A DNA stretch of 64,000 nucleotides from an uncultured Candidatus Saccharibacteria bacterium (lineage in GTDB: Bacteria; Patescibacteriota; Minisyncoccia; Phycocordibacterales; UBA9988), in contig CAYNXC010000001.1 in assembly GCA_964401135.1 (NCBI GenBank), positions 122,778-186,777 of the forward strand, in the 5' to 3' direction. Shown one piece after another: positions 17,473 through 38,893 of this stretch. Each line of letters starts with the position of its first letter. Position 1 is the stretch's first letter. The notes under the pieces are model-generated. The model had not been told where the DNA came from and did not search any database. It saw only the letters and a program-made list of their open reading frames with translations. Both the position numbers and the translations under genes were made by a program.

Positions 17473-17654
17473 AAAAATGAGTGATAATGTTTATCTATTG
17501 TATCTGAGATGCGTGTATCGCAAAGCTCATCAAGCTGTGTATAAGAATAACGAACCGTGGCTCAACAGATAACTCCGTCACATTTCTCTGTGACTCAGCA
17601 CTCGTCGTGAAGAGATGATCTCAAGAATCGCCCCTCGTCTATATGCAATCAGTC

Positions 17655-19199
17655 CTATACATCTATATCCGATCCAAGTGTACGGACGACAACTGTTTGT
17701 GTGGATTGTGCTGTCTTCCCTGCTGTATCTGTAACAGTTATCTTCACCGTATAAGTCCCCGCAGTAGTGTAGGTATGCGTAAAGCTCGTCTGTTGAGACA
17801 CCGTTGCTCCTGAAGATGTACCCACCGCAGTGCGGACGTCTGCAACAGTCTCGTCACCCCAGAGAATAGAGTAACTTAACCATTCTCCATCCGGATCATA
17901 GGCACGGATCTTCCAAGTTCCTGTCTTCCCTACCTCAAGACTGGTGGGGCCAGATACGGAAGTAATGGACGGCGCCCGATTGGTAGCGGTAGGTGCAGTA
18001 ATAGTGAAAGTGTTATCACTATGGTCACAATGGGCGCGCCCTGCACTACAAATGCGCAAGAAGTAGTTTCCGCTTACTAATCTATGCTGTCTGATTGTCC
18101 CTCCTCCTTCGTCCGTACCGTACTGAGCGCCAATGCGCCAACTATACGAATTTGTGCCCTCACGAGAATTTAGTCGTGCAATCTGTAATGGCTCAGCAGG
18201 CACCGTGATACAGGCCATTTCGCCTAAACAGGGTGATTCCTCCATATATATCCATACCGTTACCTGCCCTTCTTGTGACGAATTCCACGATATCGTCCTC
18301 GTCTCTCCGATACCCCACGACTCTCCTCCGTTTGGAGAGATGACAGTTATTTTTTGTCCAGTTCCATCTTTTTTTACTTCTATCCTGCGTGTGATAGTAC
18401 GAGTCTCCCCGCCAGAAATTAAGCGGAATGTGACAGTATAGGTCCCTGCTGTCGCATAACTGTGTGTAAAGGTGGTGGTATTGGTAGACCGCTTCTCTGC
18501 GGCACTCGCAGTAGTACCGGTGGTAGGAGCTGGCTCGTCTCCCCATGTCACCGCAATGGTGTAGTCACTACTGCTTGCGGTGGTGATGCCCAACTTCCAT
18601 GTCCCTGTCTCATTTACCTTAAGTGTGCTCGGGGCAGAGATAATGCGTAGCGATACCGTCTGCGATGGAGGGATGGTTATCACACAACCAAAGAGTGCAT
18701 TCAATTTTGCTCGCGTAGAGACTCCCACATACCCTGTCCCTCGTACAAGACCATATGGGGCGAGGACTTCAGAACGATACTGCTCTTGAAAGCCCACCAC
18801 TGCCGCGGCAGTCTGCTCATCAAACTCGTCATTCACAAAAGGTCCGTAACCTGCTTGCGTGAGCACCTGATGGAGTACACGCACGCGCTCTCCTCTATCT
18901 CCCACTCGGAGATTTGCTTTAAGTTCGGTGCACTGCTTCTTCACTGGGCTATCCTCCCATGCCTTACAAGAAGGTGGTACCGTCAAGTTAAACTGCGGAT
19001 ATACTTTTGTTAAGCGGATAATCGTCTTACATGCCGAAGAGATATCATCCTCCCTCGTATCATTGTTACTTGCACGCACCGGACTCTCTGCACGCACTGA
19101 GAGTGGCGCAACAGCAAGGAGCAGGAGTACTGCGCTTGCCACAATCATTATTCTATTCATACTTATTATAGTGTTATGTGCTAATAATAATGGCAGCAC
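17655..19199 (-). CDS. Secreted protein with a peptidoglycan-binding domain and PKD/Ig-like repeats
   Basis: A signal peptide, a PG-binding-1-like region (VLHQVLTQAGYGPFVNDEFDEQTAAAVVGFQEQY), and repeated TYTVTF.../TYTVKITVTD beta-sandwich motifs. Confidence 0.5.
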   Translation of the reverse strand: MLPLLLAHNTIISMNRIMIVASAVLLLLAVAPLSVRAESPVRASNNDTREDDISSACKTIIRLTKVYPQFNLTVPPSCKAWEDSPVKKQCTELKANLRVGDRGERVRVLHQVLTQAGYGPFVNDEFDEQTAAAVVGFQEQYRSEVLAPYGLVRGTGYVGVSTRAKLNALFGCVITIPPSQTVSLRIISAPSTLKVNETGTWKLGITTASSSDYTIAVTWGDEPAPTTGTTASAAEKRSTNTTTFTHSYATAGTYTVTFRLISGGETRTITRRIEVKKDGTGQKITVISPNGGESWGIGETRTISWNSSQEGQVTVWIYMEESPCLGEMACITVPAEPLQIARLNSREGTNSYSWRIGAQYGTDEGGGTIRQHRLVSGNYFLRICSAGRAHCDHSDNTFTITAPTATNRAPSITSVSGPTSLEVGKTGTWKIRAYDPDGEWLSYSILWGDETVADVRTAVGTSSGATVSQQTSFTHTYTTAGTYTVKITVTDTAGKTAQSTQTVVVRTLGSDIDV

Positions 19200-19235
19200 A
19201 GTGCCCTACTTCTAGGGTACCAATTTTCTCAATTT

Positions 19236-23645: not shown

Positions 23646-23704
23646 CTAGGGCGTTTTAGGCCTCCTATCAATAAAAAGCCTATCTCTATGGTATATTTAG
23701 TGTA

Positions 23705-24577
23705 ATGCTGCTGAAAATTGACCTCAAAAAAAGCCCTGAGGAAGATATCGCCTTAATACACAGGTATTTTTTTGAGACAAAGACGGACCATTTTAAAAAA
23801 AGGATTCTACGATTCTACAAAACACTAGAAGACAAATTATCTACTGAGACTGAGGAAAATCACGCTCAAGTTATTGATAGTTTTTTTAAAGATATCTATA
23901 GAAATAAGGCGGAAGAAATAGAGACAATAGTGGATCAGAGCGAGAAAATCATTGATGAAGAATCAACACAGTGCTTGGGAGAACTGGCTAAATTGATGGA
24001 TTATGATACTGAGAAGGAAGAAATATTTATCGCAATACCAACATTATTACCCTTTTCCCCTTTTAATCGACCTATTTTTTATTTTTCTATTGTCTCTAGT
24101 CTATTTAAAGATGGAAAAAACAGCATATTAGATACTGCGATTCACGAGATATCCCACTTTCTCCTCTTTGACATCTTGGACGAATTGGAAATCAATCTGA
24201 ACGATACTCAGGAAAATAAAGACTTCCTCCATCTGTTTAAAGAAGCACTGACTGGGATGTTACTGTCAGAGAAAGAAATGAGTGAATGTCTTGGCATGAA
24301 AGAATACTTTGGAAATCCAGAGGTCCATAATTTAAACATCAAACTCGAAGACGGGAAGCAACTGGTATTTCGTGAATATCTACGTTCAATACTCCATCAG
24401 TACCGGCAACAAGATCTCTCCTTTCAACAATTTATTGCAGATACAATAGAGATACTCCGGCCAAAAGCAGAAGAATTCAGTAAGAAAAAAATATTTTGGA
24501 ATAAAAATGAGCAAAAAATATTAAATAGGGATGAAGAATTATCAAAAGAATACGGGCAACCTATTTTAATTCAGTAA
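23705..24577 (+). CDS. HExxH-motif protein, paralog 1 (putative metallopeptidase-like, function unknown)
   Basis: AIHEISHFLLF, then a shared FLHLFKEAL...LL region. Paralogous to 27993..29084 and 30518..31201. Confidence 0.5.
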   Translation: MLLKIDLKKSPEEDIALIHRYFFETKTDHFKKRILRFYKTLEDKLSTETEENHAQVIDSFFKDIYRNKAEEIETIVDQSEKIIDEESTQCLGELAKLMDYDTEKEEIFIAIPTLLPFSPFNRPIFYFSIVSSLFKDGKNSILDTAIHEISHFLLFDILDELEINLNDTQENKDFLHLFKEALTGMLLSEKEMSECLGMKEYFGNPEVHNLNIKLEDGKQLVFREYLRSILHQYRQQDLSFQQFIADTIEILRPKAEEFSKKKIFWNKNEQKILNRDEELSKEYGQPILIQ

Positions 24578-24756
24578 TCATAAAATAAAAAAGTGGATAC
24601 AATACTAGAGATTGTATCCACTTAATAGATTCAGGCAATGCTTTGACAGCTATGGTCACAGCTGTCGCAAGAGTGATCGGAGTCAGTATTGCAGTCTGTA
24701 TCACAGTCGGAACCGCAATCACCACATTGATTTGATGAACATTTCTAATAACATCG

Positions 24757-25002
24757 TTAACTAAGCAACGTTATCTCACTATCCTCAACCTTCCTCATCT
24801 CAAGTATCTCTTCTTTATTGAGGTCTAAGAAATCAATCACTTCATCATTTTTTGCGTTAAATCCTATCCTACATATAGAATCTTTCTCCCACATAAACAC
24901 GCCAACACACTTGTATTGATTGCCATCACTGCCCTGTATGAGTAATTCAACAACCGTGTTGTTTTCTGTATCGTTTCGATCATTGGGGATTATAGTAGTC
25001 AT
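24757..25002 (-). CDS. Hypothetical protein (81 aa), last gene of a small three-gene operon
   Basis: Overlaps the upstream ORF by 4 nt. No recognisable motif. Confidence 0.35.
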   Translation of the reverse strand: MTTIIPNDRNDTENNTVVELLIQGSDGNQYKCVGVFMWEKDSICRIGFNAKNDEVIDFLDLNKEEILEMRKVEDSEITLLS

Positions 25003-25571
25003 ACAATAGTGTGTATATCAGTGATAAACGCTTTGGGTATAATATAGTAGGTAGGCTTTCCATCAGGATGGTTTACCGCCGGAGCAGGATATGTTCGGAT
25101 AGTTTCTGGGTCTCTTAACACGATGTGATCATCGCACACGCTGTGAAGAATTCCTTCGGAATACATTGTGGAGCAATCTCCCCTCTCCGCATTGCCCACA
25201 TACACAACATCTCGCCAAGTAACTGCTACGCGTGACGATTCTTTTAGATTACTGGGGATGGTAATTTTGAAGTCTTTGCTTACAGAGAGTAGCGCGGAAT
25301 CAGGAATGACCAGTCCTTTTACAATAAAGCTGTCATCAGTCCCATCCTGTCTTCCTGATGCAGATACATTTTTTATAAAAGTAATAATGATGTTATCCCC
25401 ATTCTTTTTCACATACCCAAACGCCTCGTGTGGGGATAATTTGGTTTCGCCAACTTTCTCTTCAAAAAGGTAGTAGGCATCAATGTATTTGATTTTACAG
25501 ATTTCCTCCATAGGTTCATTATATAAAGAAAGCGGATAGGTTGGTACAAACCCTATCCGCTCGATGATCAT
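24999..25571 (-). CDS. Hypothetical protein (190 aa)
   Basis: ORF only. Sits 8 nt downstream of a small Ser/Asp-rich ORF. Confidence 0.4.
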   Translation of the reverse strand: MIIERIGFVPTYPLSLYNEPMEEICKIKYIDAYYLFEEKVGETKLSPHEAFGYVKKNGDNIIITFIKNVSASGRQDGTDDSFIVKGLVIPDSALLSVSKDFKITIPSNLKESSRVAVTWRDVVYVGNAERGDCSTMYSEGILHSVCDDHIVLRDPETIRTYPAPAVNHPDGKPTYYIIPKAFITDIHTIV

Positions 25572-25578
25572 GGTACTA

Positions 25579-25785
25579 TCAGCCGAAGATGGATTTCCAG
25601 AATCCAGTTGCTGCTTTGCCGGAGTCGTCGTCCCGAGGGAATGGTGTACTGTTCAGTGAAGAATTCCCCCTCTCAAACAATCCAGCATCGGTCGCATCAT
25701 CCCGAGCACTGTGCTCAGCAGAAGAGACTTTACCCAGAGAATCTCCGCTATGTGCAGAGGTATCTCCGTCTGTCCATTTACCCAT
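25579..25785 (-). CDS. Small Ser/Asp/Gly-rich protein (about 68 aa, from the ATG at 25785)
   Basis: AAAGGAAG sits 8 nt upstream of the ATG. The product MGKWTDGDTSAHSGDSLGK... leads the operon immediately after the HK stop. Confidence 0.35.
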   Translation of the reverse strand: MGKWTDGDTSAHSGDSLGKVSSAEHSARDDATDAGLFERGNSSLNSTPFPRDDDSGKAATGFWKSIFG

Positions 25786-25883
25786 AACGCCCACTTCCTT
25801 TCTACAAAGTTCAAGGCTCTGTACTCAGAAAATCTGAGTAGAAGTTACTAAACATAGTTTACACTAATCTACTATTTTGTCAA

Positions 25884-27551
25884 TTACCCCTTCTTCGCAG
25901 GGAGCTCCACAATAAAGGTGGAACCGGTACCGGCACCAGTACTCTCGGCCCAGATCTTGCCTTTGTGTGCCTCCACCATCTGCTTGGCCACATATAAGCC
26001 CAGACCGGTACCAGAGTAGTTGACCTTGCCGGCGTCATCGGCGCGGACAAACTTCTCAAAGAGCTTGTGCATCACCTCCGGCGTGAGTCCCACGCCGCTA
26101 TCCTTAATCGCAATGCGCACCTTAGCCTCGCCGTCGCTCACCTTTACTTCAATGGAGCCCGTGGGCGTGTACTTAATGGCGTTGTCGACAAGGTTAGAGA
26201 TCACCTGACTCAATTTACCCGGATCGGCGGTAATCTCATATTCCCCTTCCTCGGCAATAAAGTTGAGCGTGAGCCCCTTCTGTTCGGCGGAAACCTTCAT
26301 TGTAGAGACAACCTTCTCGACGAGATCCCTCACATTCAAGTTGGAAAACTCGTACTTCATCCGTCCCAGCTCAATGCGAGTGACATTCAAAAAATCTTCG
26401 ATCACCACCACGAGCCGCTGACTGGAGTCAAAAATATTTTGGAGCGGCTGGTGCATCTTCTCCCCCACCTCGCCGTAGGAGCCCTCCAGTAACATTGAGG
26501 TGTAGCCCTTGATGGCGGTTAAGGGGCTGCGCAATTGGTGCGAGGCAATGGAAACGAATTCCGTCTTTTGCCGATCCAATTCCTTGAGCTTGAGGTTTGC
26601 TGCAAAGAGACTGTCGTTCGCTTTTGCCAAGTCTCCAGCGAGTCGCTCAATGCGCTCGCGTTGCGCCACCTCCCCCTTTACGCTCCTAACCAGGATGTAG
26701 CCAAAACCGATGGCGATGATGAGGGTAATACCCGTGAGCACAATGTTGACCGGATTTCTCACAAAGAAGAACTCGGACGCAATGAGGATGACCAAGCCCA
26801 CCACCAAGGCCTGTGTGGCGAGGAGCTTAATGTTAAAGGCTTTGAACTGCACAATGAGGTACGCCAAGAAGCCCATAAAGACAAGCATCCCAAAGAGGCC
26901 GTACTGCTCCAATTCAAAGTTATCGATCGCGCTCGCCAAGTAGCCGGTAACGAAAAAGGAGAGGAGGAAGAGGAGCATCCCCACACCGAGCGGCACAATC
27001 TGCTTGCGTAGTGCTGGCTTGACCTTACGGTACCGCACAACAATGACCCTAAATGTCCAGAGCATGAAGATGAGCCCAAGGAGATAGTAGTAGCTCGTGA
27101 AGTAGTGCCCTTCGTGTACTTCACAGTTAGGGAGATCAAAATATTGGAGGTTCCATCTTGATGAGGCAAAGAGGATGACGGGGAGTAAAAGGATGGAGAT
27201 AATGAGCTTTGTATTAAACGAAATATCTTTTTTATCTATATACACATAGACGAAGTACAAACAGAGAGCATACAACAGTGAATACAACACTCCAAACGCC
27301 GGCCAGATAAACTGGATCAGACTAACATTATTATTAGTCCAAGCAATTAGGCTAAGAAAAGACCATAAAGAAAAGACTATTGAGATAGACACTAAAATAG
27401 TTCCGACTAAATTACGCGCACGCACAAAAACAAAAATCCCGATCAATAGTGAGACTATGACTGCGGGAATATGCGAATAATAGAGAAGCCCAGGAACAGA
27501 ATCTGAGAAGAATAAAAACTGCGGATTTGGAATATCGCTACAGAAGATCAT
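25884..27551 (-). CDS. Sensor histidine kinase with a large (about 7-8 TM) N-terminal membrane domain
   Basis: HisKA (IASHQLRSPLTAIKGYTSML) and HATPase_c (GTGLGLYVAKQMVEAHKGKIWAES). No response regulator is adjacent. Confidence 0.85.
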   Translation of the reverse strand: MIFCSDIPNPQFLFFSDSVPGLLYYSHIPAVIVSLLIGIFVFVRARNLVGTILVSISIVFSLWSFLSLIAWTNNNVSLIQFIWPAFGVLYSLLYALCLYFVYVYIDKKDISFNTKLIISILLLPVILFASSRWNLQYFDLPNCEVHEGHYFTSYYYLLGLIFMLWTFRVIVVRYRKVKPALRKQIVPLGVGMLLFLLSFFVTGYLASAIDNFELEQYGLFGMLVFMGFLAYLIVQFKAFNIKLLATQALVVGLVILIASEFFFVRNPVNIVLTGITLIIAIGFGYILVRSVKGEVAQRERIERLAGDLAKANDSLFAANLKLKELDRQKTEFVSIASHQLRSPLTAIKGYTSMLLEGSYGEVGEKMHQPLQNIFDSSQRLVVVIEDFLNVTRIELGRMKYEFSNLNVRDLVEKVVSTMKVSAEQKGLTLNFIAEEGEYEITADPGKLSQVISNLVDNAIKYTPTGSIEVKVSDGEAKVRIAIKDSGVGLTPEVMHKLFEKFVRADDAGKVNYSGTGLGLYVAKQMVEAHKGKIWAESTGAGTGSTFIVELPAKKG

Positions 27552-28069
27552 ATATTGTTAATTTTATCTGCAATGTATTGTTGAAAATATCCCTTATATT
27601 TTAACTGGAGCTCAGGAATTTTCCAATCTTCTCCTGTGATTTTAGAACGACAAGAGCTACTGCCACACTGACAATTCATCACATAAAATTGATCTCCTGA
27701 ATGAGCAACGGCCATTGCGTAATCAAAACAAATTTCTTCTTCTTCTTTTATTTTTTTGATTGCAATAAGGCGTATCTGTCCTAAAAATCCAGCATTTGGT
27801 TCACAAGAATGATTGAAGTAATCGGCTAATTCAGATTCACCACAAGAGGATAAGACAAAGTTGTCATCAATCTGAACTCCTGAATCTTTATGCTCCTGAG
27901 GCAGGATTGCTTCCTCCTCCAAGCTTAAGATATAGCCACCAAATAGAGCCAGTGTCTCATTCTTTTTTATATCTGCCTTTGCAAACACCCCTTTGCCATA
28001 CTCACCAGTCTCCTGCACCTCCAACTTTGGGCTCATCCACGAGAAGGGTCTCTGTTGTGCCGATGTCAT
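27548..28069 (-). CDS. SET-domain protein (putative protein-lysine methyltransferase)
   Basis: GKGVFA, NHSCEPN, EEICFDY and a post-SET CQCGSSSC. Its stop and the HK start overlap by 4 nt. Confidence 0.85.
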   Translation of the reverse strand: MTSAQQRPFSWMSPKLEVQETGEYGKGVFAKADIKKNETLALFGGYILSLEEEAILPQEHKDSGVQIDDNFVLSSCGESELADYFNHSCEPNAGFLGQIRLIAIKKIKEEEEICFDYAMAVAHSGDQFYVMNCQCGSSSCRSKITGEDWKIPELQLKYKGYFQQYIADKINNI

Positions 28070-28087
28070 ATCTCTCTATTGTAGCAC
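27979..28087. repeat. Copy A of a roughly 110-bp element repeated three times, covering the SET start codon and first 30 codons
   Basis: Near-identical to 32497..32605 and partly to 30433..30519. The conserved core is GTGCTACAATAGAGAGATATGACATCGGCACAACAGAGACCCTTCTCGTGGATGAG on the minus strand. Confidence 0.8.
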
Positions 28088-29084
28088 CTTCACAATAGGG
28101 GGAGAATCGGTATATACTGCCTCTATGCCAAATAGTTTTCGTATTAACAAATTATTCAATAAATTAATATTTATTGGAGAAATCTGCCAGATCAGAAACA
28201 ACCCTTGGAACAAAGAGCGGGTTGAACAGTGGCTAGCAGGCAATGGTGGTGCACTCTCTACAATTGAACAATCGTCAATAAAGAAAATCACTGATATAGC
28301 ATCAGAAGTAGGCATCAATCTCATTGAGGCTTATTTTTTGACCAAAGAGAATGAACAATTGTGGAATATTTTGGGACAAGAGATTGGAACAACTCACACG
28401 GGGGCAATTAAAGAAGTACTTGAGAATTTTTCTCATCGTTTTGACATCGTCTGGCAGAAAGAAGAAACGCATCTCATGAGAATAAGTAAATTTTTTAACT
28501 CACAATCAAAAAAAATAGAAACGGCATTAGCACAAGTAGAATCCCTCACAGGATTACAGAACAAAACAAAGCTCACTGACATACCCATACAGTTAGCAAT
28601 GAGCAGTGCAGAAGAGGATGATATTGTAGGATGGTACTCAACCTTTGAAGAAAAAACGGATCTTGTGCTGGAATGTTCTGGAGTAATTGAGAATAATTTC
28701 CCTTTTCTTGAAGCAGTGTTACTGCACGAACTGTTCCATCTTGCATTAAGAAGTCACTCTGTAGTGATGCCTTTGATTGTGAGTGTTGCTGATGAAAATC
28801 AAGACCTCCTCAGTCCCCTCTCTCAAGATATGCCGCCTTTCCAAATTCTTGAGGAGCTACTCATCAGTTCTTTTACTCCAGAGGGATACTTGGCAACAAA
28901 ATACTTTAACACCACGATAAGTATTGCGGAAAAAACTGACGAATCAGTGCTTCACAACTTCACATTGATCAGACGGCGGAGTGCTCACGCAATGAGAAAT
29001 CTGGCGAAAGAATATACGGATGAAAAAAAGTGCATAGATAAGATGTACTTAAACTCCCTCACTGAGACAATAAAAAACGGGTAG
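27993..29084 (+). CDS. HExxH-motif protein, paralog 2. An alternative start at 28125 would exclude the repeat-derived N-terminus.
   Basis: LLHELFHLAL and a shared downstream region. The first 44 codons are antisense to the SET N-terminus and repeat. Confidence 0.5.
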   Translation: MPYSPVSCTSNFGLIHEKGLCCADVISLYCSTFTIGGESVYTASMPNSFRINKLFNKLIFIGEICQIRNNPWNKERVEQWLAGNGGALSTIEQSSIKKITDIASEVGINLIEAYFLTKENEQLWNILGQEIGTTHTGAIKEVLENFSHRFDIVWQKEETHLMRISKFFNSQSKKIETALAQVESLTGLQNKTKLTDIPIQLAMSSAEEDDIVGWYSTFEEKTDLVLECSGVIENNFPFLEAVLLHELFHLALRSHSVVMPLIVSVADENQDLLSPLSQDMPPFQILEELLISSFTPEGYLATKYFNTTISIAEKTDESVLHNFTLIRRRSAHAMRNLAKEYTDEKKCIDKMYLNSLTETIKNG

Positions 29085-29122
29085 TGTATATGCACTACCC
29101 GTTATCGGGACCGAGTTGGAGT

Positions 29123-29248
29123 TTATTTCCTGTTGGCCCAGTGCCCTTTATCCCAAGGACCCTTGGCTTCGCCCTTGAGAGCTTGTTCTTTTGCTCGAAG
29201 TAATACTCGCGGAATTACGACTGATTTGCTTTGTTGAGAATTTTTCAC
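29123..29248 (-). CDS. Small ORF (41 aa, GTG start) just downstream of the radical SAM gene. Candidate precursor peptide.
   Basis: AAAGGAGGTGA lies 5 nt upstream of the GTG. The product is MKNSQQSKSVVIPRVLLRAKEQALKGEAKGPWDKGHWANRK. Below the ORF-track length cutoff. Confidence 0.35.
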   Translation of the reverse strand: MKNSQQSKSVVIPRVLLRAKEQALKGEAKGPWDKGHWANRK

Positions 29249-29287
29249 GGTAGTCACCTCCTTTCTGTCCTTAAGATCAATTCAATA

Positions 29288-30358
29288 TTACCCTACCAAT
29301 AAACCGTAGCTTATCAAGGTTTTCTGTATTTCTTCAAAAACTCTGAAATTTGCCGCGCAGACAGTATCTTTATTTCCATTCACATAATCTTTAAGACACC
29401 CACCGTGACAAAGAGTGTTCCATGGACAAGAAGTACATGCTGCTCTTGACCGTTGTGAGAGCTGGAGAAATTCTTGAAAATTGCTTCTCTCTACAACGTC
29501 ACTATAGGATTCCGTGACAGTTCCGAAACAAAAACAAGATTCGTTAAGTAAGCTGTCGCAAGGAAAGATTGACCCATCATTGTAGACAGTCACAAATTGA
29601 TCGCAGCGCCCCATGAGCGTACATTCACGGAATTCGCCGCCAAGAAGGATGTCAATGATGCTTTTGATATCACGAATTTCTAGATCAGGATTATCTATGT
29701 CAATCCAATGATGAAAAATCTTGATCAAAAAATCGGCGTACTGGTCTGCCGTGATAGCGTTTGAATCAGGTTCACGGATACGCAGGAACTTAATTGAATG
29801 GATATCACATGAGAGAAAAAACGAAATAATATCTTTTACCAAAGAGTAGTTTTGTCTTCCTATGCAACAGCTGACCCCGTTGAAAATTCCATTCTCTCGC
29901 AAATGAGTAATCCCACGGAGAACATCCTTGAGGTTCCCTTCCCCAGCACGAGAGACTCGGAGAGTGTCATGGATTACCGGCGGAGCATCAAGGCTTACCC
30001 CGACACAGAATTGTAATCCTGCAAACAACTTTGCCCATTCTTCATTGAGAAGGGTACCGTTTGTCTGCACAAAGTTTGCAATTTTTTTACCTTGGCGAAT
30101 CCATTCTGTCTGTAGCTGCCCAACAGCGCGATAAAATTGCATACCGGCAAGTAGTGGCTCACCTCCGTGCCAGACAAACTCAATTTCATCTTGATGAGAA
30201 CAGAAGAAATTAATGGTTGCTTGCAATGTCTCTTGCGACATTACTGCAGTAGATGACCGTTGTGGATCTAGAATTCCTCGCATGTAGCAATAACAACAAT
30301 TAAGGTTACATGCTCCATTCACCGGTTTAATGATGGGTACACTGAGTGGATTTCTCAC
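29288..30358 (-). CDS. Radical SAM enzyme with a C-terminal SPASM domain (peptide/protein maturase-like)
   Basis: CNLNCCYC (CxxxCxxC) N-terminal cluster. The C-terminal Cys cluster CTSCPWNTLCHGGC is SPASM-like. GTG start with a GAGGT RBS. Confidence 0.85.
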   Translation of the reverse strand: MRNPLSVPIIKPVNGACNLNCCYCYMRGILDPQRSSTAVMSQETLQATINFFCSHQDEIEFVWHGGEPLLAGMQFYRAVGQLQTEWIRQGKKIANFVQTNGTLLNEEWAKLFAGLQFCVGVSLDAPPVIHDTLRVSRAGEGNLKDVLRGITHLRENGIFNGVSCCIGRQNYSLVKDIISFFLSCDIHSIKFLRIREPDSNAITADQYADFLIKIFHHWIDIDNPDLEIRDIKSIIDILLGGEFRECTLMGRCDQFVTVYNDGSIFPCDSLLNESCFCFGTVTESYSDVVERSNFQEFLQLSQRSRAACTSCPWNTLCHGGCLKDYVNGNKDTVCAANFRVFEEIQKTLISYGLLVG

Positions 30359-30432
30359 GGGAGATACCTCGTTTCTTTATTATTTTAAAGGTTCAAATAT
30401 ATCTGGTATTTTTATACCACATTATTCAACTT

Positions 30433-30519
30433 TATGCAAACCTCAGCACTTCCACCTTAAGACTCATCCACGAGAACGGTCTCTGCTGTGCCGATGCCAT
30501 ATCTTTCTATTGTAGCACT
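30433..30519. repeat. Copy B of the element, forming a 22-codon uORF (30433..30501, minus) upstream of the radical SAM gene
   Basis: The uORF encodes MASAQQRPFSWMSLKVEVLRFA*, which is homologous to the SET N-terminus. It shares the junction TTTGCATAAAG...AATAATGTGGTATAAA with copy C. Confidence 0.7.
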
Positions 30520-31201
30520 ATCGGGAGTGAGGAGAAGATAACAGATTGAGTGATGAACTGACAAAAGCCTTCAGATCTTTACCGCTCTTTTCCCAGAGAA
30601 TTTGATGATGTTCTAGTGAGGTTTGTAAGTCGGGATAGAAGAGCTCTTCAGGACGACCAAGTACCACTTGCGCTTCAGGCTCGTTTAGGAGAATAACATT
30701 GAGAATTTCGGAGAGTTCCCACAATGGACCGCCATTCTTACTAAGATGTAGAGTTTCCTCCTTAAAATGCAGGTCAAGATATTTGAAGAAGACAAAGTGC
30801 AGGACCTCGTGGAACGCGACCTCAATGCGGTCCAGTAAATCTTTTTTATAGTAGACTTGGAATGTCTCGTCCTCCACAAAGCGAGGATTGCAATTAAATA
30901 TAGAGAGAAAACCTTTGTACTCGTGCGAGTGACTCTCCTCTCCAAAATAGTGGCGAGTGAAATTAAAGAATGTGGAGGATCGCTGGCCAAGCTCGTTGTT
31001 AGTCTCCTCAAGAATTTTGGCAAACTCTTGAGCATGAGCATCGTAAAATGAGTCTATGTACTGTGTACTATTCTCCGCAGTGATAGTGGAGTGGGCATCG
31101 CGAATCATCGCACCAAAATCGCGCCCAGCAACAGCAAAATTATGAAAATCGGTATAGGTTTCGTAATCCTGCTCTTTGTTCAATTCAATAGTAATCATCA
31201 T
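30518..31201 (-). CDS. HExxH-motif protein, paralog 3 (start at MMITIELNK; the ORF extends to 31291)
   Basis: AFHEVLHFVFF. An ATGA overlap with the upstream CYTH gene. Confidence 0.5.
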   Translation of the reverse strand: MMITIELNKEQDYETYTDFHNFAVAGRDFGAMIRDAHSTITAENSTQYIDSFYDAHAQEFAKILEETNNELGQRSSTFFNFTRHYFGEESHSHEYKGFLSIFNCNPRFVEDETFQVYYKKDLLDRIEVAFHEVLHFVFFKYLDLHFKEETLHLSKNGGPLWELSEILNVILLNEPEAQVVLGRPEELFYPDLQTSLEHHQILWEKSGKDLKAFVSSSLNLLSSPHSR

Positions 31202-31770
31202 TCCTTCTCCAATCCAGCCTGCACAAGTGCGAGATGCATCATCCCTATCGCCTCTGGTCGATCGGTGAGATTGAGGTGCGTGAGTATCCACTGCTTCAGT
31301 TCCCCTCTGATAGAATTACTCACCTCCTTGGGAACTTCTATCTCACACTCTATAAAGTATCGGTGTCCGTTAGAAAAAGTGAGGTCGTCAAGAGAAAATA
31401 CACAGGGGTAGGTAAAGAGCGTACCCGCAAAGTCGCGACGGGTTTTATGCAATGAGAGATGAGTCCCCTCTCCCTGTAACTCTGTCAATTCATCCGCCGT
31501 GCTCGCCCCTTCTACTTCGCGCCGCATCCGTTCTCCTTGCTCGTTTAAATACCATGTTTTTTCTGTTTTTTCGTAGTCCGTCCCGTTGTACACTCTAATA
31601 CGGGTAAAGTCCCATCCTTTGTCATCAAATTTTTTGAAATGGAAATAATGATCGCCTAACGATGACTCCTTACTCAAGGGGTACCCGAGAGTTGGGAGTG
31701 CTTCAATACAGTGTGCATACTCCTCTGTATTCAATTCCAATTTAATCTCGGTCTCAATGTGGTCTTTCAT
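31198..31770 (-). CDS. CYTH-domain protein (class IV adenylyl cyclase / triphosphatase fold)
   Basis: N-terminal ETEIKLEL (the ExExK signature of CYTH). Confidence 0.55.
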   Translation of the reverse strand: MKDHIETEIKLELNTEEYAHCIEALPTLGYPLSKESSLGDHYFHFKKFDDKGWDFTRIRVYNGTDYEKTEKTWYLNEQGERMRREVEGASTADELTELQGEGTHLSLHKTRRDFAGTLFTYPCVFSLDDLTFSNGHRYFIECEIEVPKEVSNSIRGELKQWILTHLNLTDRPEAIGMMHLALVQAGLEKE

Positions 31771-31830
31771 TATTGTATTTGTTTTTAATAAAAACGACTG
31801 AATAATGATCCTTATTCAGTCGTTGGTATT

Positions 31831-32424
31831 TTAGACTAGTTGGATTTTTTCTACAACCTCGTCCAAAGTTAGGTTTGTAGTATCGATTACAATTGGATCA
31901 AAAAGTGTTCTTGCATAATTAACCATAGCCTCTTCCATCCGTAAGAAGAAATCTGGATCCCGTATTACTTTTAAGTCATTCACGGTAACTTTTTCTGGTG
32001 ACTCTTTCATCCTTTTTCGAAGCCTTATCCTCCTCTCTTCAAGACTGGTAGTAAGAATGTAGACGCCTGTAAACCTAGGATGAAGTAAAGCTAAAGCCTC
32101 CAATCTTGCAAGAATCACGCTGAAATGAGCGGCGGCATGATAGGCGAGCGATCGTAAAAGAATTGTAGAGTCTTGGATTGTCGCTGAAATTGGCCAAGAA
32201 AAACGTTTCAGGTCATATTCTAACGCCTTCGCGTAAAGATACCCGATCCATTCAGAACCATCTTTTTCGATTTCTTTTGCAACTTGCAGAATATGATTAC
32301 TACCCAATAGAGATGAATGGCGGACCGTATAGTTTGGGTTGAGATGGTGAAGTCTTCGGATAACACTGGACTTTCCTGAAAGATCTATTCCTTCGACTAG
32401 ATAATACGGGACAGGTTTTTCCAC
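31831..32424 (-). CDS. P-loop kinase, thymidylate-kinase-like
   Basis: Walker A EGIDLSGKSS, then IQDSTILLRSLAYHAA (compare Tmk DRY..SS.AYQ). GTG start. Confidence 0.5.
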   Translation of the reverse strand: MEKPVPYYLVEGIDLSGKSSVIRRLHHLNPNYTVRHSSLLGSNHILQVAKEIEKDGSEWIGYLYAKALEYDLKRFSWPISATIQDSTILLRSLAYHAAAHFSVILARLEALALLHPRFTGVYILTTSLEERRIRLRKRMKESPEKVTVNDLKVIRDPDFFLRMEEAMVNYARTLFDPIVIDTTNLTLDEVVEKIQLV

Positions 32425-32496
32425 TTTTCTTTCCTCAAAAATCTAAGTTTTTTCAAGAGCCATGCTCTATTCCATTTATACCATATTATTTGGCTT

Positions 32497-32605
32497 TATG
32501 CAAACACCCCTTTGCCATACTTCCCCGTCTCCTGCACCTCCAACTTTGGGCTCATCCACGAGAACGGTCTCTGCTGTGCCGATGTCATATCTTCTATTGT
32601 AGCAC
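32497..32605. repeat. Copy C of the element, forming a 30-codon uORF (32496..32588, minus) upstream of the Tmk-like/CYTH/HExxH operon
   Basis: The uORF encodes MTSAQQRPFSWMSPKLEVQETGKYGKGVFA*. The listed 63-aa ORF 32476..32667 lies in a different reading frame. Confidence 0.75.
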
Positions 32606-37465: not shown

Positions 37466-38893
37466 CTATTTCCTCACAAAGAGTGGGGTGAGGGAGCGGT
37501 TTTCTTTGGTGGCTCTCTGTAGTGCTTCTGCGGTTGCCGGCATAAAGGGAGTGAGAAGGTACGCAATATATGCAAGTGACTGCACTAACTCGGCAATGAC
37601 TTCTTTTGCCGCCTCCGCATCCGTCTTCACCAGTTTAAAAGGTTCCGTCTCCGAAATGCGCGCATCTACCTCTCCTACCAGTTCCCAAATCACCTGCATT
37701 GCATCACTGTAACGGTAGGAATCCATCGCATCTATGTACTCTCTTGGAACTTGATCCTTAGTACTTGGAACTTGATCCTTAGTACTTGGAACTTGATACA
37801 TCTCTGCCATTTTCATAATGCGCGACGCGAGGTTACCTAGCCCATTCGCCAAGTTCCCGTTGTAACTTTCTGTAAATTTTTCCAGAGTAAAGTCCGAGTC
37901 CTCGAAAGGGCTCACCTCACGCAAGAGGTAGTAACGCAAGGCGTCAGTGCCGTACTCATCCACAATCGCGATGGGGTCAATCACATTTCCCAGACTCTTA
38001 CTCATCTTTGCACCGCCAGAGGTCATAAAGCCGTGTATCACAATCTGCTGTGATGGAGGGAGTCCTGCCGAGAGGAGCATCGCTTGCCACATTGCCGCCT
38101 GCTGGCGTGTATTATCTTTCCCCGCAAACTGGACGACTGGCCACCACTTTTCAAACTCCTCCATCCGTTCAGGCCAGCCAATAGTAGAGACATAATTTAC
38201 CAGCGCATCAAACCACACATACATCACCTGTTCAGGATCTTCGGGGACTGCTATCCCCCACGGCATCTTCTCCTTTACACGCGAGATAGAAAAATCTTGC
38301 AAGCCCTGCGATACAAAGCTCTTCACCTCATTCCTACGCGTCTCGGGTACTACAAATTGATCATTACCGTACAGTGCAAGCAGGGCATCTTGATACTTTG
38401 AAAATCTAAAGAAGTAATTCTCCTCGTCGATGAGCTCTAATTCTAAGTTTGGATGGATGGGGCACTTCCCCTCCTCCAGCTCTGAATCTGTCTTCTCCAA
38501 TTCACAGCCGACGCAGTAGCGTACCTGATACTTCTTCTTATAAATATCACCGTTTGCGTAGCAACGCTTCCAAAATTCCTGTGCAGCTATTACATGCGCT
38601 GGGTCACTCGTGCGAATAAAATTAGTGTATGAGAGATTCAACTTCTCTTTGAGTACAGCAAAGTGTGTCACAGCCTCATCAACATAGACTTGCGGATCTC
38701 TCCCCTCCTCTTGCGCCTTCTTCCAAATTTTCTGTCCATGCTCGTCAGTCCCTGTATTAAAGAGTACCTCACGCCCCAAGAGGCGCGAAAAGCGCGCGTA
38801 AGTATCTGCTTGCACTATCTCAAGCGCAAATCCGATGTGTGGATCTGCGTTGACATAGGGCAGTGTCGTAGTAATGTAGGTGCGTTCACTCAT
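37466..38893 (-). CDS. metG: Methionine--tRNA ligase (short form, no C-terminal tRNA-binding domain)
   Basis: TTTLPYVNADPHIGFAL, KMSKSLGN and Zn-knuckle cysteines. Confidence 0.9.
   Translation of the reverse strand: MSERTYITTTLPYVNADPHIGFALEIVQADTYARFSRLLGREVLFNTGTDEHGQKIWKKAQEEGRDPQVYVDEAVTHFAVLKEKLNLSYTNFIRTSDPAHVIAAQEFWKRCYANGDIYKKKYQVRYCVGCELEKTDSELEEGKCPIHPNLELELIDEENYFFRFSKYQDALLALYGNDQFVVPETRRNEVKSFVSQGLQDFSISRVKEKMPWGIAVPEDPEQVMYVWFDALVNYVSTIGWPERMEEFEKWWPVVQFAGKDNTRQQAAMWQAMLLSAGLPPSQQIVIHGFMTSGGAKMSKSLGNVIDPIAIVDEYGTDALRYYLLREVSPFEDSDFTLEKFTESYNGNLANGLGNLASRIMKMAEMYQVPSTKDQVPSTKDQVPREYIDAMDSYRYSDAMQVIWELVGEVDARISETEPFKLVKTDAEAAKEVIAELVQSLAYIAYLLTPFMPATAEALQRATKENRSLTPLFVRK
37745..37800. 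repeat. In-frame 21-bp tandem repeat (about 2.7 copies) inside metG
   Basis: ttggaacttgatccttagtac repeated in tandem, encoding (QVPSTKD)n. Confidence 0.8.

What the first reader, a model, noticed from the sequence alone, without database searches (positions are those of the whole stretch)
27979..32605. A roughly 110-bp element present three times, each at the 5' end of a minus-strand transcription unit. It is the SET gene N-terminus in one copy and a truncated uORF in the other two.
The three copies are 27979..28087, 30433..30519 and 32497..32605.

On the minus strand they share GTGCTACAATAGA(G/A)AGATATG(A/G)CATCGGCACA(A/G)CAGAGACC(C/G)TTCTCGTGGATGAG... This carries a TACAAT box 9 nt before an ATG and then codons for M(T/A)SAQQRPFSWMS...

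In copy A the reading frame continues into the 173-aa SET-domain protein. In copies B and C a stop truncates it to 22 and 30 codons: MASAQQRPFSWMSLKVEVLRFA* and MTSAQQRPFSWMSPKLEVQETGKYGKGVFA*. These lie immediately upstream of the radical SAM gene and of the Tmk-like/CYTH/HExxH operon respectively.

Copies B and C also share a downstream junction motif, TTTGCATAAAG-N3-AATAAT(G/A)TGGTATAAA.

Three readings fit: a shared leader-peptide or uORF regulatory device coordinating the three operons, remnants of duplications and recombination that built the island, or a genuinely conserved short peptide.
Basis: seen in the sequence. Interest (0 to 1): 0.6.

Follow-up and report, generated by a model that had tools for sequence, protein, structure and literature searches.

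The report
Duplicated gene-start repeats marking cassette swaps
The three repeats are copies of the promoter and first 20-30 codons of one gene (SET), left at the joints where blocks of foreign genes were recombined in upstream of it; related strains still swap those blocks by crossing over inside the repeats, so the short "upstream ORFs" are most likely scars, not a regulatory peptide.

Summary
Three direct copies on the minus strand start sharply at GTGCTACAAT, and they are the only repeat family of 35 nt or more in the 64-kb window. Copy A is the native start of the SET gene, whose N-terminus is conserved family-wide. Copies B and C are fragments fused at TTGCA to a second promoter, P2 (TTGCAT-17-TATAAA). 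P2 is the native promoter of the radical-SAM cassette in a distant lineage that has no SET.

Relatives show the meaning. A 99%-identical strain (L119) loses synteny inside copy B. A roughly 80%-identical genome (L005) is 100% identical from the radical-SAM gene to codon ~180 of the kinase gene downstream of SET. Across relatives the SET-derived part shrinks from 30 to 22, 21, 19 and 0 codons, while the -10 box persists. Four other Patescibacteria loci show the same kind of duplicate upstream of their own SET genes. Neither leader holds an attenuator, no attC-like fold is present, and no recombinase was recognised.

Best reading: these are recombination scars from anchor-plus-microhomology gene acquisition. 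They now serve as promoters and crossover sites. The uORF-regulator reading is not supported.

The parts
27980..28087 (-). Copy A: native promoter P1 (extended -10 TGCTACAAT at 28086-28078) plus codons 1-30 of the SET gene. ATG at 28069.
   Evidence: The N-terminus RPFSWMxPKLEV..YGKGVFA is conserved in the SET homologs read and in the 30-sequence alignment consensus.
27548..28069 (-). SET-domain gene (173 aa). Its stop overlaps the start of the histidine-kinase gene.
   Evidence: Pfam SET, E 1.6e-13. The SET-kinase pair is also seen in L001, L015, L018 and L119.
25884..27551 (-). Histidine-kinase gene (555 aa). Proposed right-hand homologous anchor: identity to L005 falls from 100% to about 80% near 27000, and GC3 jumps from about 0.4 to about 0.74 near 27100.
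   Evidence: Pfam families HisKA/HATPase_c are recorded for the orthologs.
30411..30518 (-). Copy B module: P1 -10 (30517-30509), a 22-codon SET remnant ORF (30432-30500), then P2 (TTGCAT 30439-30434, 17 nt, TATAAA 30416-30411). Its first G is the last base of the HExxH stop codon.
   Evidence: Reproduced in L085. Holds the strain-level switch point with L119.
32475..32605 (-). Copy C module: P1 -10 (32604-32596), a 30-codon SET remnant ORF (32496-32588), then P2 (TTGCAT 32503-32498, TATAAA 32480-32475). 95% identical to copy A over 94 nt.
   Evidence: Its 3' half joined to P2 and Tmk is reproduced in L086.
28088..30410 (.). Cassette 1: radical SAM/SPASM maturase (29288-30358, minus), 44-codon precursor-like ORF (29123-29257, minus), terminator-like hairpin (29076-29103), and a convergent 319-aa HExxH-motif gene (28125-29084, plus).
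   Evidence: The same three-gene module, with P2 and no SET fragment, occurs in L120-L125.
30518..32474 (-). Cassette 2: Tmk-like P-loop kinase (31831-32424), hairpin with T-run (31793-31824), CYTH (31198-31770), and a 227-aa HExxH-motif protein (30518-31201).
   Evidence: Found with the same module in L095, and in L085-L091.

Best explanation
The repeats are displaced or duplicated copies of the SET gene's promoter and first 20-30 codons. They were left at the joints where gene blocks were recombined in upstream of the SET-histidine-kinase operon.

Proposed steps (inferred):
1. DNA from a relative carrying [P2-cassette-P1-SET-kinase 5' end] pairs homologously with the resident SET/kinase genes. 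This gives the right-hand crossover, inside the kinase gene.
2. The left end of the incoming DNA is joined illegitimately to the resident SET gene at a 5-nt microhomology. TTGCA occurs in codons 29-30 of SET (GTG TTT GCA) and in the -35 box of P2.
3. The resident promoter and SET start are stranded upstream as a truncated copy, while the incoming copy keeps SET intact. Repeating this, or copying the composite module, gives the array C-cassette 2-B-cassette 1-A.

Afterwards (shown): the copies act as homology patches where related strains cross over and exchange what lies upstream.

Afterwards (inferred): each copy supplies a promoter that needs no -35 box and starts at or next to the ATG, in tandem with P2. 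The 22- and 30-codon ORFs are by-products of this history.
For: - Copy A is native. The SET N-terminus is conserved in the homologs read and in the 30-sequence alignment consensus.
- Homology among the copies starts and stops sharply. There is no significant similarity upstream of GTGCTACAAT or downstream of TTTGCA.
- P2 exists without any SET fragment in two places: next to the purD-like gene in L001, and upstream of the rSAM-peptide-HExxH2 module in L121, where rSAM is 62% identical and P2 follows a terminator. So B and C are SET::P2 fusions at TTGCA.
- L119 is 99.15% identical to the window over 11.2 kb, but only up to the middle of copy B. Upstream it has an unrelated 210-aa gene. About 8 of the 45 nt 5' of TTCTCGTGGATGAG differ, and everything after is identical.
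- L005 is about 80-85% identical in the ribosomal-protein genes and the kinase 3' part. It is 100% identical from window 29392 to about 27000.
- GC3 of the kinase gene switches at about the same place in the window, L001 and L005. SET and the cassettes share the low GC3.
- Across relatives the SET remnant shrinks (30, 22, 21, 19, 0 codons) while TGnnACAAT persists.
- The same architecture occurs in L015, L018, L041 and L007: a truncated promoter plus SET start, then a variable block, then intact SET.
- Differences between the copies are mostly synonymous, as expected for former alleles.
- No recombinase or transposase domain was recognised in the island or its immediate flanks, though several ORFs have no domain match. 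There is no match to plasmids or phages.
- Natural competence with homologous integration is demonstrated in Saccharibacteria (PMC10633639). Microhomology-mediated promoter capture has been shown experimentally in E. coli (PMC6614815).
Against: - The order of events cannot be reconstructed. Copies B and C carry the same SET::P2 joint in front of different cassettes. That requires either two joints at the same microhomology or copying of the whole composite module.
- Four different upstream contexts all abut P1 within about 10 nt of the -10 box. Three contexts abut P2 right after TATAAA. This precision is more than random illegitimate joints would predict. It needs either selection for intact promoters or a site-specific process.
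- The 100%-identity block in L005 could be a chimeric metagenome contig rather than a real transfer.
- No transcription start, promoter activity or transformation event has been measured in this organism.
- The low dN/dS between copies would also fit selection on the peptide.
Confidence: 0.62

Rival explanations
1. Intragenomic promoter propagation or capture without transfer. A local microhomology-mediated (TTGCA) duplication copied the P1-SET5' piece in front of resident silent or acquired genes and was kept because it turns them on. The copies were later homogenised by gene conversion.
For: - The copies meet the spirit of 'putative mobile promoters' (PMC3488235): 56-57 nt at 93-96% identity upstream of non-homologous genes.
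- The -10 box is the best-conserved part. L092 keeps only the promoter, and L007 keeps the promoter but frameshifts the ORF.
- Tandem duplication with microhomology joints captures promoters in experiments (PMC6614815).
- Copy C is 95% identical to A, which is compatible with gene conversion.
Against: - A tandem duplication would give identical cassettes on both sides of the joint. Cassettes 1 and 2 are unrelated.
- P2 already provides a promoter for each cassette.
- The 100%-identity block shared with L005, and the strain-level replacement seen in L119, show exchange between genomes, not only local duplication.
Confidence: 0.18
2. A dedicated cassette system, working like an integron. The 110-130-bp P1-SET5'-P2 modules would be specific recombination sites bounding cassettes the size of a transcription unit. 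The cassettes would excise as circles and re-insert at the SET 5' end, catalysed by a recombinase encoded elsewhere.
For: - Module ends are precise in several unrelated contexts.
- L095 is a 2180-bp closed cycle, with first 30 nt equal to last 30 nt, made of exactly one module plus Tmk-CYTH-HExxH. No other contig has this property.
- Homology ends within the same 6-nt stretch (GTTTTTGC/TTTGCA, the GVFA codons) in the window, L015 and L018.
- Different cassettes occupy the same slot in L015 and L018.
Against: - No recombinase domain was recognised in or beside the island, though several ORFs have no domain match.
- The modules have no attC-like fold (DNA z-scores -0.7 to +0.6) and no terminal inverted repeats.
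- Breakpoints differ in L041, L007 and L001.
- The L095 cycle is equally produced by a tandem amplification, or by collapsed flanking repeats with clipped flanks.
- L015 and L018 may share one ancestral event.
- The L119 switch point lies in the most conserved stretch, as expected for ordinary homologous recombination.
Confidence: 0.1
3. A leader-peptide or uORF device. Translation of the 22- and 30-codon ORFs would control expression of the downstream operons and coordinate them with SET.
For: - An intact ATG and open frame are present in window B and C, L119 B, L095 and the L001 fragment.
- The 24-nt deletion in B is in frame.
- dN/dS between copies is 0.06-0.25.
- Each ORF sits directly upstream of a transcription unit.
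Against: - There is no terminator or alternative hairpin in either leader. RNA fold z-scores are -2.2 and -0.6, and the terminator scan finds none there.
- P2 lies downstream of the ORF and bypasses it.
- ORF length and stop vary (30, 22, 21, 19 codons). The ORF is absent in L092 and frameshifted in L007.
- The ORFs contain no run of regulatory codons.
- Low dN/dS is expected anyway for pieces of a formerly functional gene.
Confidence: 0.07
4. A metagenome assembly artefact, with strain variants stitched together through a shared repeat.
For: Contigs from several assemblies break inside the repeats: L086-L091, and L005 starts inside rSAM. That shows the region is a graph fork.
Against: - The SET::P2 joints share only 5 nt, so an assembler cannot have created them.
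- L085 spans copy B at 99.9% identity. L119, from another sample, carries a B-type joint. L086 carries the C-P2-Tmk joint.
- The copies differ by SNPs and an indel, so they can be told apart.
Confidence: 0.03

Closest known systems
Homology-facilitated illegitimate recombination (HFIR) during natural transformation, as described for Acinetobacter, Streptococcus pneumoniae and Pseudomonas stutzeri (my own knowledge; the term occurs in papers listed)
   Same: - A one-sided homologous anchor. Here it would be SET/kinase, with the identity and GC3 break inside the kinase gene.
- A joint at a few bases of microhomology, here TTGCA.
- No integrase is needed.
- Competence is shown in the phylum (PMC10633639).
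   Different: - Here the anchor gene is brought in again by the donor, so the resident 5' end is duplicated rather than deleted.
- The products form an array.
- The process recurs at one operon in several lineages.
- It has never been demonstrated in Patescibacteria and was not observed directly here.
Putative mobile promoters / promoter propagation (Matus-Garcia et al. 2012, PMC3488235) and promoter capture by microhomology-mediated duplication (PMC6614815)
   Same: Near-identical promoter sequence upstream of non-homologous genes within one genome. Recombination-based duplication and HGT are among the proposed routes. Microhomology is found at the break points.
   Different: - The repeated unit carries the start codon and 20-30 codons of the source gene, because the promoter appears to be leaderless.
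- It is fused to a second promoter.
- It demonstrably acts as a crossover site between strains.
Genomic islands that insert in the 5' end of a gene and bring a replacement 5' end, such as dusA-specific integrative elements (my own knowledge)
   Same: Direct repeats made of the target gene's 5' end flank the inserted DNA. The target gene stays intact and a displaced fragment remains.
   Different: Those elements encode a tyrosine integrase next to the att site and have a defined short core. No integrase was recognised here, the breakpoints vary among lineages, and the inserts are 2-kb blocks of genes.
Integron cassette arrays
   Same: An array of small gene cassettes in one orientation, separated by repeats of about 110-130 bp next to a fixed platform gene. 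One cassette is seen as a closed cycle (L095).
   Different: There is no IntI and no attC hairpin. Each cassette has its own promoter(s). The repeats are derived from a protein-coding gene. One cassette contains a convergent gene.
Displaced 'orphan' modules at Rhs/CDI toxin loci (my own knowledge)
   Same: Successive acquisitions by recombination in a conserved part of a gene leave a row of displaced gene fragments as a fossil record.
   Different: There the 3' tips are displaced downstream and lack promoters. Here the 5' ends, with their promoter, are displaced upstream.

Membership tests
Putative mobile promoter (PMC3488235) | Two upstream regions align over more than 50 nt at 80% identity or better | tested here: met
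   B vs C: 57 nt at 96.5%. A vs B: 56 nt at 92.9%. A vs C: 94 nt at 95%. The aligned stretch is not wholly inside the fixed -150..-50 window that the paper's pipeline uses.
Putative mobile promoter (PMC3488235) | The downstream and upstream coding sequences are not homologous | tested here: met
   Downstream genes are SET, radical SAM and a Tmk-like kinase. Upstream contexts are HExxH2 (divergent), the HExxH 3' end and the purD-like gene. Flank similarity is not significant.
Putative mobile promoter (PMC3488235) | The sequence actually works as a promoter | not testable with these tools
   Only inferred: an extended -10 (TGcTACAAT) lies 7-8 nt before the ATG and is conserved in all copies, including L092. 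The generic scan, which needs a -35 box, does not list it.
HFIR product | Illegitimate joint at a short microhomology between recipient and incoming DNA | tested here: met
   SET reads ...GTGTTTGCAAAGG. P2 without a SET fragment reads ...ctacTTGCATAAAG in L001 and ...attaTTGTATAAAT in L121. The fusion reads ...GTGTTTGCATAAAG.
HFIR product | Homologous crossover in an anchor on the other side | tested here: inconclusive
   Identity to L005 drops from 100% to about 80% at about 27000, inside the kinase gene. A GC3 step lies at about 27100 in three genomes. A chimeric L005 contig cannot be excluded.
HFIR product | Arises during natural transformation | not testable with these tools
   Competence is shown for cultivated Saccharibacteria (PMC10633639), not for this organism.
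Integron cassette array | IntI-type tyrosine recombinase next to the array | tested here: not met
   No recombinase domain was found in the ten island and flank proteins scanned, and the flanking genes read as ribosomal proteins, SSB, S6, TatD and MetRS. Several ORFs have no domain match. The rest of the genome was not searched.
Integron cassette array | attC sites that fold as imperfect hairpins in single-stranded DNA | tested here: not met
   Folds of both strands of modules B and C give -4.4 to -11.9 kcal/mol, z-scores -0.66 to +0.63 against shuffles.
Transcription-attenuation leader peptide | Terminator/antiterminator structures between the leader ORF and the regulated gene | tested here: not met
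   No terminator-like site in either leader. Fold z-scores are -2.24 (B) and -0.56 (C), with no hairpin followed by a U-run.
Transcription-attenuation leader peptide | The leader ORF is conserved in relatives | tested here: not met
   ORF lengths are 30, 22, 21 and 19 codons with different stops. It is absent in L092 and frameshifted in L007.
Integrative element targeting a gene's 5' end (dusA type) | Integrase gene adjacent to one of the direct repeats | tested here: not met
   The genes between and beside the repeats are Tmk-like, CYTH, two HExxH-motif proteins, rSAM and a peptide ORF.
Transposon / MITE | Terminal inverted repeats and short target-site duplications | tested here: not met
   No inverted repeat pairs the module ends. 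No match to plasmid or phage collections.

The most novel reading that the evidence does not exclude
Patescibacteria may carry an integrase-free, or trans-recombinase-driven, cassette platform at the SET-histidine-kinase operon. Composite promoter modules derived from the SET 5' end would bound cassettes the size of a transcription unit, many of them RiPP-type. The cassettes would circularise or amplify, as the L095 closed cycle suggests, and re-insert at a preferred site in the GVFA codons of SET. That would be a working analogue of an integron, built from a gene's own start.
Probability: 0.12. Interest if true: 0.8.

Novelty: new variant of a known kind. Interest (0 to 1): 0.48.

Why it matters
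Patescibacteria have tiny genomes and, to my knowledge, few recognisable mobile elements. How they gain and shuffle accessory genes is poorly understood. This locus gives a concrete, testable picture:

- A conserved operon (SET-kinase) serves as a homology anchor.
- Short microhomology closes the other joint.
- The stranded gene starts then supply promoters and act as portable crossover sites for further swaps.

The pattern is seen in strains that are 99% identical and recurs in at least four other lineages.

There is also a practical warning for annotators. Short ORFs that copy a neighbouring gene's N-terminus can be recombination scars, not leader peptides.

The cassettes are of interest in themselves, because they include RiPP-type biosynthetic sets.

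Tried and rejected
- **Metagenome scans.** A scan for the P1/ATG pattern found nothing, not even L001's contig. A second scan with AGACCNTTCTCGTGGATGAG gave 23 hits, all unrelated. That collection does not hold this lineage.
- **Exact look-up of the window's SET protein.** Not on record.
- **P2 as decayed SET coding sequence.** Local alignment of the 90 nt after TTTGCA in A vs C is not significant (score 12 vs 9.1 +/- 1.6, p about 0.08). Rejected.
- **L001's purD-side sequence as a decayed P1.** It is the conserved purD-proximal intergenic sequence, present in the window and L092 too. Rejected.
- **attC-like or other structure in the modules.** None found.
- **Attenuator in the leaders.** None found.
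- **Rfam.** Only RNase P RNA and tRNAs in the window.
- **Known defence systems.** PADLOC gave only generic radical-SAM and kinase-domain hits.
- **Plasmid or phage origin.** No blastn match.
- **uORF as the RiPP precursor of the rSAM.** Rejected. A conserved precursor-like ORF lies downstream, and the relatives' rSAM genes have small ORFs of their own next to them.
- **Pattern error.** My first P2 pattern had one N too many and gave a false zero. Corrected.
- **HExxH2 as a paralog of the cassette-2 HExxH protein.** No BLASTP similarity.

Full report
**1. The observation**

On the minus strand the window holds three direct copies of one sequence. Copy A is at 27980-28087, B at 30433-30518 and C at 32497-32605. 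All three begin at the same base with GTGCTACAATAG. That 12-mer and the 23-nt core CAGAGACCSTTCTCGTGGATGAG each occur exactly three times in 64 kb, against about zero in shuffles. No other direct repeat of 35 nt or more exists in the window.

A and C are 95% identical over 94 nt. B matches over the first 56 nt, then has a 24-nt in-frame deletion. B and C share 29 further bases, TTGCATAAAG-N3-AATAATRTGGTATAAA, found nowhere else in the window.

Upstream of GTGCTACAAT and downstream of TTTGCA the copies have no significant similarity, so both edges are sharp.

**2. Which copy is the original**

Copy A runs into a 173-aa protein with a Pfam SET domain. Its N-terminus, RPFSWMxPKLEV..YGKGVFA, is conserved in the SET homologs read, which come from many Patescibacteria, and in the consensus of a 30-sequence alignment. 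A is therefore the native gene start, and B and C are fragments of it.

TGcTACAAT is an extended -10 box that ends 7-8 nt before the ATG. If it is the promoter, the mRNA has almost no leader. SET orthologs in L015, L041 and L007 have the same layout. This promoter assignment is an inference.

**3. What the shared junction motif is**

The motif reads as a promoter, which I call P2: TTGCAT, 17 nt, TATAAA, with TG before the -10. It occurs without any SET fragment in two places:
- Beside the purD-like gene in the relative L001, where it precedes an acetyltransferase gene.
- After a terminator and in front of the rSAM-peptide-HExxH2 module in L121, a lineage whose rSAM is only 62% identical and which has no SET gene at this locus.

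So P2 looks like the native promoter of cassette 1, and the B and C junctions are fusions. SET codons 28-30 (GTG TTT GCA) meet the P2 -35 box (TTGCAT) within the shared TTGCA.

**4. The setting**

Ribosomal-protein genes, SSB, S6 and MetRS frame the region. The closest public genome is a MAG labelled Candidatus Saccharibacteria.

Genes between about 23.6 and 32.6 kb have GC3 of 0.34-0.51, against 0.50-0.60 in the flanks. In minus-strand order the region reads:
- purD-like gene (divergent)
- C
- Tmk-like, CYTH, HExxH
- B
- rSAM/SPASM, 44-codon ORF, convergent HExxH2
- A-SET, histidine kinase.

No recombinase or transposase domain was recognised in the island or its immediate flanks, although several ORFs have no domain match.

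**5. Relatives**

The stretch between SSB and the kinase/S19 differs in every related genome recovered.

| Locus | Relation to the window | What it shows |
|---|---|---|
| L085-L091 | 99.8-99.9% identical | L085 spans copy B. The others end inside the repeats, as expected at a graph fork. |
| L119 | 99.15% identical over 11.2 kb (window 30518 to 19288) | Upstream of the middle of copy B it has an unrelated 210-aa gene. Its B copy differs at about 8 of the 45 nt before TTCTCGTGGATGAG and is identical afterwards. Two strains thus lose synteny inside the repeat, in its most conserved stretch. |
| L005 | about 80-85% identical in ribosomal genes and the kinase 3' part | 100% identical from its contig start (window 29392) to about 27000, inside the kinase gene. 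|
| L001 | SET 88% identical | Its HExxH gene is followed by a 19-codon SET remnant with a different stop, 10 kb from its own SET. |
| L092 | HExxH 88% identical | After HExxH only GTGCTACAATAGGGGAT remains, fused to a P2-like sequence. A promoterless SET relic (codons ~20-41) lies beside its HExxH2 homolog. |
| L095 | 80-83% identical | Carries a 21-codon remnant joined to P2, then Tmk-CYTH-HExxH. Its first and last 30 nt are identical, so the 2180 bp form a closed cycle. |

GC3 of the kinase gene steps from about 0.4 to about 0.74 near codon 150 in the window, L001 and L005 alike.

**6. Recurrence**

Four more Patescibacteria loci have a truncated promoter-plus-SET-start upstream of their own intact SET, on the same strand, with a variable block between them.

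| Locus | Block between fragment and SET |
|---|---|
| L015 | DUF6176 plus a YcaO/nitroreductase fusion |
| L018 | hydrolase and others |
| L041 | PLP-enzyme ... MetRS. The duplicate also includes an upstream small gene |
| L007 | not examined; its duplicate keeps the promoter plus about 14 codons |

In L015 and L018 the fragment sits at the orthologous position after a shared left flank, yet the cassettes differ. Homology ends within GTTTTTGC/TTTGCA, the GVFA codons, in the window, L015 and L018, but elsewhere in L041 and L007. In L007 the promoter is about 90% conserved while the ORF is frameshifted.

**7. Tests of the regulatory reading**

- Neither leader has a terminator-like site.
- RNA folds are unremarkable, with z-scores of -2.2 and -0.6.
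- P2 lies downstream of each short ORF.
- The ORF varies in length and stop, and is missing in L092.
- Differences between copies are mostly synonymous. A vs C has 4 synonymous and 1 nonsynonymous change, and B vs L095 gives dN/dS of 0.25. This is also expected for pieces that were parts of functional SET alleles until recently.

**8. Tests of the mobile-element readings**

- The modules do not fold like attC sites.
- They have no terminal inverted repeats.
- Nothing matches plasmid or phage collections.
- PADLOC gives only generic hits.

**9. Explanation**

The data fit gene gain by recombination anchored in SET/kinase on one side, with a microhomology joint on the other. This strands the resident promoter and SET start upstream. 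The copies are then reused as crossover patches.

Shown:
- the fusion structure
- the SET-free form of P2
- the strain-level switch inside copy B
- the identity and composition break inside the kinase gene
- the decay series of the SET remnant
- the recurrence in other lineages.

Inferred:
- transformation as the route. Competence is shown in the phylum (PMC10633639)
- promoter activity
- the order of events.

Unexplained:
- why B and C carry the same joint before different cassettes
- why so many contexts abut the modules within a few bases of the promoter boxes
- what the L095 cycle represents.

Those three points keep a site-specific cassette mechanism alive at about 10%.

**10. Comparison with known systems**

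The closest concepts are:
- homology-facilitated illegitimate recombination
- promoter propagation or capture (PMC3488235, PMC6614815)
- islands that target a gene's 5' end
- displaced orphan modules at toxin loci.

None of these combines a leaderless promoter plus gene start, fusion to a second promoter, array formation, and recurrence at one operon in Patescibacteria. I rate it a new variant of a known kind, of moderate interest.

Noticed in passing
window 29123-29257 (minus), with rSAM 29288-30358; L121 2388-2591: The 44-codon ORF after the radical SAM/SPASM gene ends in GPWDKGHWANRK. The same 12 residues end a 67-aa ORF in a lineage whose rSAM is only 62% identical, and that ORF has an extra SWDKG unit. 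The rSAM's best NCBIfam matches are anaerobic sulfatase maturase and the dynobactin maturase DynA, with several cyclophane-forming peptide maturases further down the list; all are below their cut-offs. This looks like an undescribed RiPP precursor with W-x-K type motifs, in a conserved rSAM-peptide-HExxH2 module.
   Followed up: partly
window 25884-27551 (kinase gene), step near 27100: GC3 of the histidine-kinase gene jumps from about 0.40-0.46 to about 0.74 near codon 150. The same step is present in L001 and L005. The 7TM part of the kinase and SET share the island's composition, so the gene looks like an old chimera or a recurrent crossover point.
   Followed up: partly
L095 1-2210 (ERR4450737): The contig's first 30 nt equal its last 30 nt (k-1 for k=31). 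One SET5'::P2 module plus Tmk-CYTH-HExxH therefore forms a closed 2180-bp cycle with no flanks. It could be a circle, a tandem amplification, or collapsed repeats.
   Followed up: partly
window 30411-30439 and 32475-32503; L001 8443-8471; L121 about 1254-1282: The whole P2 promoter, spacer included, is conserved (about 26 of 29 nt) between lineages whose adjacent rSAM proteins are only 62% identical. It also sits in front of three unrelated genes (rSAM, Tmk-like, GNAT). The conserved spacer suggests a regulator binding site or recent spread.
   Followed up: partly
window 23649-25877: The segment between the kinase gene and S19 holds a 290-aa HExxH-motif gene and a 190-aa gene. It is absent from L005, present in L119, and replaced by other genes in L001 and L092. 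This is a second variable slot, downstream of the kinase.
   Followed up: partly
window 23705-24577 (+) and 30518-31201 (-): Two of the three HExxH-motif proteins are distant paralogs (27% identity, E 2e-7). The third (28125-29084) shows no BLASTP similarity to them. None matches Pfam or NCBIfam.
   Followed up: partly
window 31793-31824: A 13-bp perfect hairpin with T-runs on both strands lies between the Tmk-like gene and CYTH, so cassette 2 may be two transcription units. CYTH's ATG lies 1 nt after a TACAAT.
   Followed up: no
L092 17725-17795 and 17901-20678: In this relative the SET gene is reduced to a promoterless relic with stop codons. A Peptidase_S66 gene and a PRMT5-like methyltransferase gene now precede the kinase gene. 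A different methyltransferase occupies SET's place.
   Followed up: no
window 3767-3840 and 37935-38008: A 74-nt inverted repeat (77% complementary) lies 34 kb apart. One arm is inside the MetRS gene. Possibly a paralogous synthetase motif.
   Followed up: no
window 17579-19226: About 1.6 kb present in the window has no counterpart in L005, between otherwise collinear segments that are 85% identical.
   Followed up: no
L001 404-595 and 705-2036; L092 12354-13953: A different radical SAM gene (438-443 aa), preceded by a 58-63-aa Cys-rich ORF and followed by a PNP_UDP_1 family gene and an ABC-F type (two ABC_tran domains) gene, sits after the HExxH gene in two relatives (directly in L001, after two further genes in L092). 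This is a second RiPP-like set in the same variable region.
   Followed up: no
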